Shown one piece after another: positions 1 to 3,000 of a stretch of DNA of 64,000 nucleotides (position 1 is the stretch's first letter; the number at the start of each line of letters is the position of its first letter). This DNA is from Carcharhinus longimanus (lineage: Eukaryota): positions 33,301,051 through 33,365,050 of the forward strand of contig JASCQW010000160.1 in the NCBI GenBank assembly GCA_030264375.1. The letters are read 5' to 3'. The position numbers were made by a program.

Positions 1-3000
1 ATGCTTTTTAAAAGACAAAATTGTACCCACCTCTACTACTACCTCTGGCAGCTTGTTCCAGACACTCACCACCCTCTATGAAAAATTGCCCCTCTGGACA
101 CTTTTGTATCTCTCCCCTCTCACCTTAAACCTGTGCTCTCTGGTTTTAGGCTCCCCTACCTTTGGGAAAAGATATTGACTATCTAGCTGATGTGCCCTCA
201 TTATTTTATAGACCTCAATAAGATCACCCCTCAGCCTCCTACGCTCCAGGGAAAAAAGTCCCAGTCTATCCAACCTTTCCTTGTAACTCAAACCATCAAG
301 TCCCGATAGCATCCCAGCTGGGGGGGGGGGGCACGGTAGCACAGTGGTTACTGGGGTGGCATGGTGGCATAGTGGTTAGCACTGCTGCCTCACAGTGCCA
401 GGGACCTGAGTTCGATTCCCCGTTTGGATCATCGTCTGCGTGGAGTTTTGCACATTCTCCCCGTGTCTGCGTGGGTTTGCTCCCGTTTCCTCCCACAGCC
501 TGAAGTACGTACTGGTTAGGGTGCATTGACCCAAACAGGCACTGGAGTGTGGCGACTAGGGGAATTTCGTAGCAACTTCATCGCAGTGTTAATGTAAGCC
601 TTACTTGTGACACACTAATAAATAAAGTTTGAAATCTTTTCTGCGTGTTACAAGTTGCACCTGAGTTTACACCAACAATTGTTTTTGAGGCGCTGGGCAC
701 CTTCAGGGAAAGGGGGTGGAAGCAGTAAATGTAGAAAGAACGAAATCTCAACCACCCGTCCCATGCTGCAGTACCTGAACAAACGTAATTCTCAAGCTGT
801 AGAAGTAGGAAAGCTCCTACGACATTGTCACATCCAGCCAGTCTCATGTTGGAGGCTGCTTCCCTGTTTGTATTACATCTTCCCTGGAACTGGACCAACA
901 AAAAAAATGATCAGCTGCTTCCCATCCAGAGTAAGAGGAAGAACTTGCATTGATGAATCAGCTGCCATAGTATCCCCAGAGTGCAGTCGCTGCCGTAATA
1001 CAGGAAACATAGCAGCCAATTTGTGCATAGCAAGCTCCTACAAACTGCAATGTGACCCAGATAATCTGTTTTCAACACACTAATTGAGTAATAAGTTTTG
1101 GCCAGGACACTGGAGAGAACTCCCCTGTGGTTTTTCAAATAATGTCCTGGGATCTTTCCCCGAGAGACAGAGCAGACAAAGCCACTGTCTCATATCTCAG
1201 CCAAATGTTGGCACATTTGACACTACAGCATTTCCTCAGCACTGCAATGGAGGCATCAGCCTGGATTTTGTGTTCCTGTCTCTGGAGTGAGCTTTGCATC
1301 CACGACACACCAACTCAAACACAAGTTCCCACTGAGCCACGGTTCACAGGAGGGACAAGAGAGGAAAGTTTAGATTAGTAATGACTGCAATAGAAGTTTT
1401 TTTTTTGGTTTTATTCCAATTCAATCCAATCAAGTCCAATTCAGAGTCTCAGTAAGTTGGGACATTCCCGATCCAAGCTGATAAGACAAACTCTCACCTC
1501 CTGTATTGGGTTTGATCTACATGATCCAAGCTGATTGGAGTAGGCATAGCTCCTCCTCCAAGGCTTGGTCTCATTTGCATCTTGGCCAAACGACCAAGGC
1601 GCCGCTTTTAAAAATTGCTTCAAATGAAGCTGAAATGTAACCTAATGACTTCAACCAAACACAGCATGTCCACACTAAACATGATCTTAGCCAAAAGGCC
1701 AAGAAGTTTAAGAGAACCAGGGTACAGGGAAGACAGCAATAGTTTAAGATTTTAAGGGAAGGGTTGTGTTGCTGACAGTTTTATCTTTTTAAGTTGTGCT
1801 ACCCAGTAGCCCAAAGGTCAAGTGCACTGAATCTTTTGAGTGGAAAATGCTTTGCCAGCAATACTGAGGGAGTGCTGCACTGTCAGACGTGCCATCTTTC
1901 AGGTGCATTTTTAAACCAAGACCCCATCTGCTTGGTCTTTGAATGTAAAACATGTTATGGCATTATTTTGAAGATACATTCCCATAACTTGGACAATATT
2001 AATCCCTCAATCAACATCACATTGTCAGTATCACTTGTGTGTGGGAGCTTGCTGTGCACAAATTGGCTGCTGCATTTCCTCTATTACAAGTGACAATGCT
2101 GCAAAACTATTTCACTGGCCAGAACACACTGTGAAACATCTAACAGTCATAAAAAAGGCTAAATAAACACCAGTCTTTTTTTATAATAGTAACGTTATAA
2201 TAGGAATAAACTGTCCCAAGGTGCTTCACAGGAGTGCAATCAAACAACATTTAACATCGTTAAAGGGTGGCAAGGTGGCACAGTGGTTAGCTCCGCTGCC
2301 TCACAGCACCAGGGACCCAGGTTCAATTCCAGCCTCGGGTCATTGTCTGTGTGGAGTTTGCATGTTCTCCCTGTATCTGCATGGGTTTCCTCCGGGTGCT
2401 CCGGTTTCCTCCCACAGTCCAAAAGACGTGCTGGTTAGGTGCACTGGCCATGCTAAATTCTCCCTCAGTGTATCCGAACAGGCGCCGGAGTGTGGCGGCT
2501 AGGGGATTTTCACAGTAACTTCATTGCAGTGTTAATGTAAGCCTACCTATGACACTAATTTTAAAACTTTTTTAAGAAGAGATGATGATCTGTGGGTGAA
2601 ACACTGTCAGGGTATTGACTCACTGAGAAGGTTCCTGATCTTGTTCATTTTAACTCCAAAATCCAATATGTCTAACGCAACAACGTTCACTGAATTTGGG
2701 CCCAAATGGTCGATGCCAGTGAGAGTGCTCCATGCGTTCCTCCTCCAACCCCTCTTCACTCACTCCATCCGCGCATCCTTCCTCCCTCAATCCTTACACT
2801 TAAATGCACCTTCACCATTCGCCTCAACTACTCCATCTGGTAGTGAGTTCCACATTTAATCCACTCCTGGAATAAGTTTCGCCTGAATCTCTACGTTAGA
2901 TATATTAGTGACTGTTTAATATTTATAACCTCTAATTCTGGATTCCTCCAGAGGCGGAAACATCTTCTCAAACCCCCTTCGTAATATTCTCATCTCTGTC

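What the first reader, a model, noticed from the sequence alone, without database searches (positions are those of the whole stretch)
1392..1709. Short retroposon with a U2 snRNA head: candidate snRNA-derived SINE or non-autonomous Keno-like family
Seen: on the minus strand, 1706-1674 reads CTTCTTGGCCTTTTGGCTAAGATCATGTTTAGT. That is U2 snRNA nt 5-37 with 3 mismatches against the U2 sequence as I recall it. About 260 nt of non-U2 body follow, then AATAAA, an A10 tail, and an 8-bp repeat (AGAAGTTT at 1392-1399 and 1702-1709) in a TT|AAA context. Known: Keno (Tx1 clade) and Utopia retrotransposons insert into U2 genes at about nt 37-38; U1/U2-headed SINEU elements are described in crocodilians; TT|AAAA is the L1-type endonuclease consensus. 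Inference: U2 similarity stops almost exactly at that insertion point. This suggests a U2-promoter-driven, internally deleted element mobilised in trans, rather than an ordinary U2 pseudogene. I do not know whether a shark family of this kind is already catalogued.
Basis: partly seen in the sequence, partly recalled or inferred. Interest (0 to 1): 0.72.

Follow-up and report, generated by a model that had tools for sequence, protein, structure and literature searches.

The report
U2-headed poly(A) retrocopy in a shark
A 310-base non-coding insert in a shark genome starts with the first 37 bases of the U2 spliceosomal RNA and ends in a poly(A) tail, so it is a reverse-transcribed copy of a hybrid RNA; whether it is a one-off or belongs to a repeat family could not be tested.

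Summary
On the minus strand, 1706-1674 matches U2 snRNA positions 5-37 at 30 of 33 bases (Rfam U2: 40 bits for the whole alignment, 28 bits for the head alone). The next 264 nt are not U2. They end in AATAAA, ACC and an A10 run, and an exact 8-bp direct repeat flanks the unit at an L1-type nick site.

It is therefore a dead retrocopy of a chimeric U2-headed RNA, not a U2 gene or an ordinary pseudogene.

U2 similarity stops 1 nt short of the published Keno/Utopia insertion point. However, U2 retrocopies also break in single-stranded regions.

One new feature: the body holds a second, more diverged 20-mer resembling U2 stem-loop I (17/20 identical; 7 of 5000 shuffles score as high). This resembles the repeated head capture of crocodilian SINEU. 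Rfam does not call it U2.

Copy number, the decisive test, could not be run: no shark genome, Repbase or Dfam was available. The window holds one copy. Family membership is about even odds.

The host is a carcharhiniform shark, and the site lies about 30 kb downstream of KMT2A.

The parts
1702..1709 (.). 5' copy of the 8-bp target-site duplication (AGAAGTTT on the plus strand). Bases 1702-1706 are also U2 positions 5-9, so there is microhomology at the 5' junction. The presumed first-strand nick lies between 1709 and 1710 (plus strand GTTT|AAGAG).
1674..1706 (-). Outer U2 head. It matches U2 snRNA positions 5-37 (stem-loop I plus the start of the single-stranded branch-site region) at 30 of 33 bases of the Rfam consensus. 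It contains a T4 run at 1693-1696.
1599..1673 (-). 75-nt spacer with no detectable relative. It contains a T5 run at 1610-1614, which would be a Pol III terminator (the reasoning used for SINEU in PMC4494074 section 18).
1579..1598 (-). Inner 20-mer resembling U2 stem-loop I. It is 17/20 identical to the outer head and folds as the same 7-bp hairpin. It may be an older, decayed U2 head. Rfam does not recognise it.
1449..1578 (-). Rest of the non-coding body. It holds an exact 13-nt direct repeat (1470-1482 and 1523-1535). It has no Rfam, Pfam or protein relative.
1415..1448 (-). Sub-terminal tandem repeat: period 10, 3.2 copies.
1410..1415 (-). AATAAA hexamer, only 3 nt upstream of the A-run.
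1397..1406 (-). A10 tail (T10 on the plus strand). It is one of only two A/T runs of 10 or more in the 64-kb window. Its last 3 A overlap the duplication.
1392..1399 (.). 3' copy of the 8-bp target-site duplication.

Best explanation
Layer 1 (about 0.9, read from the sequence). Bases 1400-1709 on the minus strand are a dead retrocopy of a non-coding chimeric RNA of about 310 nt. Its 5' end is U2 snRNA up to position 37. The rest is about 264 nt of unrelated sequence ending in AATAAA and poly(A).

It was inserted by target-primed reverse transcription. A LINE endonuclease of L1/Tx1 type nicked the plus strand at GTTT|AAGAG. The T-run primed on the poly(A) tail. The second nick 8 bp away gave the duplication. 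The cDNA end was joined through a 5-nt microhomology (CTTCT), which cost U2 nt 1-4.

T4 and T5 runs inside the unit argue against Pol III transcription, so an external Pol II promoter must have made the RNA (inferred).

Layer 2 (the committed reading, about 0.45, inferred). The RNA was not a first-generation accident. It was a member of a SINEU-like retroposon lineage, meaning a short, non-autonomous poly(A) element that captures U2 5' fragments at its 5' end and is mobilised in trans.

Three features lean this way. There is a second, more decayed stem-loop-I-like segment 75 nt inside the first. AATAAA lies only 3 nt from the tail, which fits a source copy that already carried an encoded A-tail. 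The 3' end has a short tandem repeat.

The route of head capture is left open. It could be a reverse-transcriptase jump onto U2 snRNA, or co-transcription from a U2 gene interrupted at the Keno/Utopia site.
For: - U2 head: 30/33 identical to Rfam U2 positions 5-37; 28.1 bits alone and 40 bits in the full alignment; the core is unique in the window.
- Non-U2 body: no U2 match at E<=10.
- Retrocopy marks: A10 tail and an exact 8-bp flanking repeat, against a base rate of 21 in 1,292,991, and a nick site matching TT/AAAA (motif from PMC5322556 passages).
- Internal T4 and T5 runs. The same argument is used against Pol III for SINEU (PMC4494074 section 18).
- No coding capacity: stops in all three frames. 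The 66-aa frame has only 3 hits, all to internally repetitive proteins at 28-32% identity, and none by word-index search.
- Inner U2-like hairpin: 17/20 identical; 7 of 5000 dinucleotide shuffles of the body reach the score; 0 of 442 other 264-nt slices of the window do; it has the same hairpin geometry in the fold.
- Tail: 10-nt tandem repeat, 3.2 copies, and AATAAA 3 nt from the tail. Cleavage normally falls 10-30 nt after the hexamer (textbook knowledge).
- Precedent: SINEU elements show repeated 5' addition of U1/U2 fragments, carry poly(A) tails and are mobilised by Tx1 LINEs, one of which carries a U2 head itself (PMC4494074 sections 11, 16, 17, 18).
- Cartilaginous fishes do make retrocopies (14,081 annotated; bioRxiv 10.64898/2026.06.26.734816 passages).
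Against: - Only one copy is seen. blastn with word size 7 and nhmmer find nothing but the element itself in 64 kb. That is uninformative unless the family has tens of thousands of copies, but it also means family status rests on no direct evidence.
- Rfam does not recognise the inner hairpin as U2 (2 matches at E<=10, neither U2). Its support is a single post-hoc alignment of 20 nt. A hairpin rich in CTTGG/CCAAG, a motif that recurs in the body, could mimic it.
- No annotated or predicted protein in three searches carries a translated copy. One frame out of six was tested, so this is weak evidence against a very abundant family.
- No paper in the held library reports an snRNA-headed SINE outside crocodilians. 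This says nothing about Repbase or Dfam entries.
- AATAAA could be a chance hexamer in an A/T-rich tail.
- The immediate flanks have no paralogue in the window, so no empty site confirms the insert's boundaries.
Confidence: 0.45

Rival explanations
1. One-off chimeric retrocopy. During a single retrotransposition of some polyadenylated RNA (an mRNA 3' end, a LINE 3' fragment or a short non-coding transcript), the reverse transcriptase reached the template's 5' end. It then jumped onto a U2 snRNA in its single-stranded region near nt 37 and copied it to the cap. There is no family, and the U2 head exists only in this copy.
For: - Chimeras of this kind, with U1/U2 fragments, are described for human L1 (as summarised in PMC4494074 section 18).
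- U2 retrocopies break at defined single-stranded positions (PMC5322556 abstract and passages).
- In crocodiles, snRNA fragments were added to SINEU-2 copies in many separate events with variable 3' truncation (PMC4494074 section 17).
- Only one copy is in the window.
- No translated copy appears in the protein collections.
Against: - The break lies within 1 nt of the Keno/Utopia site.
- An inner U2-like hairpin is not expected in a random template.
- AATAAA is only 3 nt from the tail, which is unusual for a first-generation copy of a normal mRNA (textbook spacing).
- The body matches no coding sequence or RNA family.
Confidence: 0.35
2. A U2 gene was interrupted at nt 38/39 by a Keno (Tx1-clade) or Utopia element. 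The U2 promoter made a co-transcript of U2 nt 1-37/38 plus the element. An internally deleted form of that transcript (LINE 5' and 3' ends only) was retrotransposed, either as a family or once. This overlaps with the best explanation as one route of head capture.
For: - U2 similarity ends at nt 37. Keno is reported to insert 37 nt into U2, and its 3' target is quoted as starting at the U2 bases that follow (PMC6136364 passages). U2 downstream of Utopia starts at nt 39, the same as Keno (PMC4640811 section 6).
- Crocodilian Tx1-Mar LINEs cluster with Keno, and one carries a U2 head (PMC4494074 sections 15 and 16).
- Dependence on transcription from the target is discussed there for R2 and SINEU.
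Against: - The insertion site here is an L1-type TT|AAAC site in non-U2 DNA, not the U2 site.
- No RT or endonuclease ORF is in the window (0 of 114 ORFs of 80 aa or more plus the giant ORF).
- The body could not be compared with any Keno or Utopia DNA.
- The relevant junction is the LINE's 5' junction. It varies in Utopia and is unread for Keno, because Kojima and Fujiwara 2004 is not held.
- Searches found no paper on Tx1 or Keno in sharks ('L1-Tx1' with 'shark' gave 0 papers; one search gave only general reviews).
Confidence: 0.25
3. A diverged U2 gene, U2 variant or ordinary full-length U2 retropseudogene. This is suggested by the Rfam alignment spanning model positions 1-192.
For: - The full alignment (40 bits) places an AAUUUUU stretch at the Sm site and two hairpins at stem-loops III and IV.
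Against: - The score is below the gathering score of 46.
- The body alone gives no U2 hit at E<=10.
- Sequence identity outside the head is scattered, while the head is 91% identical, so the two parts cannot share an age and an origin.
- Model positions 38-46 are deleted in the alignment and the region after them aligns only through unaligned local stretches.
Confidence: 0.02

Closest known systems
SINEU (SINEU-1, -2, -3) of crocodilians (Kojima 2015, PMC4494074)
   Same: - Short (under 500 bp) and non-coding, with a poly(A) tail.
- The 5' head is a short fragment of U2 snRNA (SINEU-3 carries 32 bp).
- Internal oligo-T runs speak against Pol III.
- Short TSDs.
- Possibly stacked U2-derived segments, as in the SINEU-1 subfamilies.
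   Different: - The host is a shark. The paper found none outside crocodilians.
- No sequence comparison with SINEU consensus sequences was possible.
- Family status is unknown.
- The target here is an L1-like TT|AAAC site in unique or SINE-rich DNA, whereas SINEU prefers Mariner-N4_AMi.
- No U1-derived part was detected.
Keno (Tx1 clade) and Utopia (NeSL clade) LINEs that target U2 genes
   Same: The end of the U2 part (nt 37) lies within 1 nt of their shared insertion point. A co-transcript from an interrupted U2 gene would begin as this element does.
   Different: - No ORF, so it could only be a non-autonomous derivative.
- It is not inserted in a U2 gene.
- Its target looks L1-like.
- Homology of the body to either LINE is untested.
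L1-mediated snRNA chimeric retrocopies and tailless U2 retropseudogenes (as summarised in PMC4494074 section 18; PMC5322556)
   Same: - An snRNA 5' part with a 3' truncation in a single-stranded region.
- TSD at a TT/AAAA-like site.
- A second RNA supplies the poly(A) end.
   Different: - Those are single events described in mammals.
- Here the partner RNA is unidentified.
- The tail is retroposon-like.
- A second U2-like segment lies inside the body.

Membership tests
SINEU (snRNA-headed SINE) | 5' head derived from U1 or U2 snRNA | tested here: met
   30/33 identical to Rfam U2 positions 5-37; 28.1 bits for the head alone.
SINEU (snRNA-headed SINE) | Short non-coding retroposon with a 3' poly(A) tail | tested here: met
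   The unit is 310 nt with an A10 tail and stops in all frames. No credible protein relative.
SINEU (snRNA-headed SINE) | Many genomic copies sharing the same head-body junction (a retrotransposing unit, not separate chimeras) | not testable with these tools
   One copy in the 64-kb window. No shark genome, Repbase or Dfam was available.
SINEU (snRNA-headed SINE) | Sequence similarity of the body or tail to SINEU consensus sequences | not testable with these tools
SINEU (snRNA-headed SINE) | Repeated 5' addition of snRNA fragments (stacked heads) | tested here: inconclusive
   The inner 20-mer is 17/20 identical to the outer head, and 7 of 5000 shuffles score as high. Rfam gives no U2 match for it.
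SINEU (snRNA-headed SINE) | Insertion preference shared with Tx1-Mar LINEs (Mariner-N4_AMi) | not tested
   The immediate flanks have no repeat paralogue in the window. No transposon library was available to classify them.
Non-autonomous Keno/Utopia derivative | U2 part ends at the LINE's insertion point in U2 (nt 38/39) | tested here: met
   U2 identity ends at nt 37, 1 nt short (site). Caveat: the comparison uses the LINE's 3' junction, and its 5' junction is variable or unread.
Non-autonomous Keno/Utopia derivative | Body homologous to the 5' and/or 3' ends of a Keno or Utopia LINE | not testable with these tools
   No LINE DNA was available. No RT or endonuclease ORF in the window.
Non-autonomous Keno/Utopia derivative | Site-specific insertion into a U2 gene | tested here: not met
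   The only U2 match in 1100-2100 is the head itself. The 3' flank is not U2, and the site is TT|AAAC.
L1-type snRNA chimeric retrocopy | snRNA 5' part fused to the 3' part of a polyadenylated RNA, with TSD and a TT/AAAA-like site | tested here: met
L1-type snRNA chimeric retrocopy | Single event: the junction is unique in the genome and the partner RNA is identifiable as a gene, LINE or SINE | not testable with these tools
   No genome was available. The partner has no match in Rfam or in the protein searches.
U2 snRNA gene or full-length pseudogene (RF00004) | Rfam gathering score reached, with the U2 3' half (Sm site, stem-loops II-IV) present | tested here: not met
   40 bits against a gathering score of 46. 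0 matches at gathering thresholds. The body alone gives no U2 match.

The most novel reading that the evidence does not exclude
Sharks carry a SINEU-like family, which would be the first snRNA-headed retroposons outside crocodilians. The family would capture the first 37 nt of U2 repeatedly, at the point where Keno and Utopia LINEs cut U2 genes. That would make interrupted U2 genes, or U2 snRNA itself, a recurring source of 5' ends for Pol II-transcribed, poly(A)-dependent non-autonomous elements in two distant vertebrate lineages.
Probability: 0.35. Interest if true: 0.6.

Novelty: new member of a known kind. Interest (0 to 1): 0.4.

Why it matters
SINE heads normally come from Pol III genes that carry their own promoter. 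Heads from U1 or U2 snRNA are known from one study and one vertebrate order, and how such elements are transcribed is an open question there (PMC4494074 section 18).

A second, independent lineage in sharks would show that capturing a U2 5' fragment is a repeatable route to a retroposon. It would also give a test of whether U2 genes interrupted by Keno or Utopia act as launch sites.

If it is a single chimera, it is a clean but ordinary example of template switching. It would then be useful mainly as evidence that a poly(A)-dependent LINE of L1/Tx1 type has been active in this shark.

Tried and rejected
- Second copies in the window. blastn with word size 7 at E<=10 found only the element itself. 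The best other hit was 30 nt at 83% identity in the A-rich tail, E 0.06. nhmmer found only the element itself.
- An empty-site paralogue. The immediate flanks (1150-1399, 1702-2000) have no usable paralogue in the window, so the boundaries rest on the duplication alone.
- The body as a known RNA. No Rfam family reaches a meaningful E-value, and ARAGORN found no tRNA in the window.
- The body as a LINE ORF2 C-terminus. I searched the 66-aa open frame (1444-1641, minus strand). HMMER against 1.84 billion representatives gave 3 hits at E<=0.001. All are internally repetitive proteins matched in 5-9 stretches at 28-32% identity, and I judged them spurious. The word-index searches gave nothing for longer proteins (4 candidates, none scoring) or for proteins of similar length. 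Only one of six frames was searched.
- LINE ORFs nearby. Of 114 stop-to-stop ORFs of 80 aa or more, plus the 1512-aa ORF, none hit an RT or endonuclease family.
- U2 3' half in the body. This was suggested by the glocal Rfam alignment and rejected.
- An Rfam call for the inner hairpin. None was obtained.
- RNA fold. The energy is -93.5 kcal/mol with z -2.46, and 1 of 100 shuffles folds as well. This is not strong enough to argue for a selected structure.
- An snRNA promoter element upstream of the head, and the exact ATGCAAAT octamer inside the body (1573-1580). I considered both only from remembered motifs. I dropped them because the upstream flank is target DNA and the octamer lies within the U2-like inner segment.
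- The bacterial and archaeal genome collection and the phage, plasmid and E. coli collections were not searched, because they cannot hold a shark repeat.
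Full report
WHAT IS THERE

Read on the minus strand, the region is laid out as follows:
- 8-bp repeat (1709-1702)
- U2-like head (1706-1674)
- 75-nt spacer (1673-1599)
- a second U2-like 20-mer (1598-1579)
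- about 130 nt of further body
- a 10-nt tandem repeat, 3.2 copies (1448-1415)
- AATAAA (1415-1410), then ACC
- A10 (1406-1397)
- the same 8-bp repeat (1399-1392)

IS THE U2 HEAD REAL?

At Rfam gathering thresholds the window has no match at all. With E-value thresholds on 1100-2100, U2 (RF00004) is the only meaningful match of 8. It covers 1512-1710 on the minus strand at 40.0 bits (gathering score 46), E 2.3e-6. The other seven matches have E of 4.9 or more.

In that alignment, model positions 5-37 are identical at 30 of 33 bases. Position 10 lies in the bulge of stem-loop I. Positions 30 and 33 lie in the conserved single-stranded stretch. The head alone (1655-1740) scores 28.1 bits, E 1.4e-4.

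The 19-mer core is unique in the window even with 3 mismatches allowed. The mean over 100 shuffles was 0.01 matches, and 1 of the 100 shuffles had a match.

The Rfam alignment runs to model position 192, placing an AAUUUUU stretch and two hairpins on the Sm site and stem-loops III and IV. But the body searched alone (1400-1672) gives no U2 match at E<=10. Its sequence identity is scattered, whereas the head is 91% identical.

IS IT A RETROCOPY?

The A10 run is one of only two A/T runs of 10 or more in 64 kb. The exact 8-mer AGAAGTTT flanks the unit. Exact 8-mers at a spacing of 300-320 nt occur at 21 of 1,292,991 position pairs in this window.

On the plus strand the 5' junction reads ...AGAAGTTT|AAGAG.... 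This is a T-run ending at a nick that fits the L1 endonuclease consensus TT/AAAA, as quoted in PMC5322556 (passages).

Five bases of the repeat are also U2 positions 5-9. I read this as microhomology-guided joining of the cDNA end. It leaves the insert's first base ambiguous by 5 nt and explains the loss of U2 nt 1-4. That reading is an inference.

The unit has stops in all three frames. Its CpG observed/expected ratio (0.34) equals that of the window (0.32). T4 and T5 runs lie inside it. Kojima used the same feature to argue against Pol III transcription of SINEU (PMC4494074 section 18).

WHERE U2 STOPS

U2 identity ends at nt 37. PMC6136364 (passages) states, citing Kojima and Fujiwara 2004, that Keno inserts 37 nt into U2, and it quotes the 3' target. 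PMC4640811 (section 6) states that U2 downstream of Utopia starts at nt 39 and that this 3' junction is identical to Keno's.

Two cautions apply:
- In a U2-LINE co-transcript, the head-body junction is the LINE's 5' junction. Utopia's 5' junction varies, from no TSD in arthropods to 20 bp in reptiles. I could not read Keno's, because the 2004 paper is not held.
[quoted passage not shown] Nt 37 lies in the single-stranded stretch after stem-loop I. A reverse-transcriptase jump onto U2 snRNA could therefore land there without any Keno.

Aligning the head against the body finds a 20-mer at 1598-1579 that is 17/20 identical to head positions 8-27. In the fold it forms the same 7-bp hairpin with a 4-nt loop. 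Seven of 5000 dinucleotide-preserving shuffles of the body reach its score. None of 442 other 264-nt slices of the window, on both strands, does.

Against it:
- The test was suggested by a repeat listing (family D2).
- The stretch is short.
- Rfam gives no U2 match for 1555-1612.

If real, it is an older, more decayed U2 head inside the element. That is the pattern Kojima describes for SINEU-1, where U1 or U2 fragments were added to the 5' end several times (PMC4494074 section 11; section 17).

FAMILY OR ONE-OFF?

This is the decisive question and I could not answer it. No tool here holds a eukaryote genome, Repbase or Dfam. The collections that were open cover bacteria, archaea, phages, plasmids and E. 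coli.

Within the window there is one copy. A 64-kb window is of the order of 1/50,000 of a genome of a few Gb. This is my own arithmetic on an assumed genome size. It means absence of a second copy only rules out an extremely abundant family.

As a proxy, I asked whether any predicted protein carries a translated copy of the body's 66-aa open frame. The answer was no:
- HMMER gave 3 hits, all to internally repetitive proteins at 28-32% identity.
- The word-index searches gave none.
Only one frame was tested, so this is weak.

Indirect points lean towards a replicating lineage: the inner head, the sub-terminal tandem repeat, and the AATAAA only 3 nt before the tail. Cleavage normally falls 10-30 nt after the hexamer (textbook knowledge). 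The short spacing fits a source copy that already had an encoded A-tail better than a first-generation copy of a normal mRNA.

I put family membership at about 0.45, a one-off chimera at about 0.35, and the Keno/Utopia co-transcript route (which overlaps both) at about 0.25.

LITERATURE

PMC4494074 (abstract, passages and sections 11, 12, 16, 17, 18 read) reports:
- All SINEU groups carry poly(A) tails.
- They are mobilised by Tx1-Mar LINEs that cluster with Keno.
- One of those LINEs (Tx1-11_Crp) carries a U2 head.

Later papers I checked by passages repeat the crocodilian restriction or simply cite it (PMC5786205; PMC5381603). My searches found no snRNA-headed SINE in sharks:
- SINEU with snRNA
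- SINE, shark, U2 snRNA, retroposon
- SINEU-1, -2, -3 (1 paper)
- SINEU as a whole word from 2015 (18 papers, 16 listed, none on sharks by title)
- U1-, U2- and snRNA-derived with SINE

'L1-Tx1' with 'shark' gave 0 papers. These searches cover only the held open-access library.

A 2026 preprint (10.64898/2026.06.26.734816, passages) reports 14,081 annotated retrocopies in cartilaginous fishes. It links retrocopy formation in non-mammals to CR1 or Tx1 LINEs. So a poly(A)-dependent machinery in sharks is plausible.

CONTEXT

The window is not human.
- The 1512-aa open frame at 54695-59233 (minus strand) has no Pfam domain. It is the large exon of KMT2A: 98% identical to Mustelus asterias, 92% to Scyliorhinus torazame, 86% to Chiloscyllium plagiosum and about 45% to birds and mammals.
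- The ORF at 34211-34486 (minus strand) is the C-terminal SET exon of KMT2A (Pfam SET E 4.8e-19; PDB 5f5e_A E 3.9e-60, matching to the chain's last residue).

I searched these exons one by one and did not join them into a spliced model.

The element lies about 32 kb downstream of that last exon, on the same strand, in a stretch rich in a tRNA-derived SINE. The ten runs of N were left as they are.

VERDICT

The element is real and unusual. At the least it is a clean snRNA-headed chimeric retrocopy in a shark. At best it is the first sign of a SINEU-like family outside crocodilians. One genome-wide similarity search would settle which.

Noticed in passing
window 54695-59233 (-) and 34211-34486 (-): Two exons of KMT2A (MLL1). 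The first is a 1512-aa serine-rich giant exon with no Pfam domain, 98% identical to Mustelus asterias KMT2A. The second is the terminal SET/post-SET exon. Together they place the window in a carcharhiniform shark. The exons were searched separately and not joined.
   Followed up: yes
window 13692-14018 (-): An ORF with a weak tetratricopeptide-repeat match (TPR_2, E 2.8e-4, 21 bits against a cutoff of 27). From memory, TTC36 lies next to KMT2A in other vertebrates, so this may be one of its exons. Not checked.
   Followed up: no
window 2265-2560 and about 20 other sites (e.g. 52892-53180, 8450-8725, 45131-45423, 40678-40952): An abundant tRNA-derived SINE of about 290 bp. It gives 21 blastn hits, including the query itself, at 68-88% identity, in both orientations. 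The copy read has no A-tail. It dominates the repeat content of the window. Its family name was not established.
   Followed up: partly
window 995-1055 and 2037-2087; also 1083-1199 and 1988-2020: The U2-headed element sits between two inverted blocks (86% identity over 51 bp). Both blocks also match 9220-9314 and 54413-54540. They are either two SINE copies in opposite orientation or the arms of a roughly 1.1-kb element with long inverted ends. This is of interest because crocodilian SINEU prefers to insert in a DNA transposon. Not resolved.
   Followed up: partly
window 1470-1482 and 1523-1535; 1573-1580: Inside the body there is an exact 13-nt direct repeat 53 nt apart, and an exact ATGCAAAT octamer overlapping the inner U2-like segment. 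From memory, that octamer is the Oct-1 site of snRNA gene enhancers. Its significance is unknown.
   Followed up: no
window 32100-32110: The only other A/T run of 10 or more in the window (T11 on the plus strand), next to an assembly gap at 32430-33058. It may be the tail of another minus-strand retrocopy. Not examined further.
   Followed up: partly
window 3415-3514, 5457-5616, 6799-6898, 9425-9524, 17371-17470, 20593-20864, 25570-26125, 32430-33058, 47772-47785, 63162-63171: Ten runs of N totalling 2041 bases. They were left untouched. Several stop-to-stop 'ORFs' exist only because they run through these gaps.
   Followed up: no
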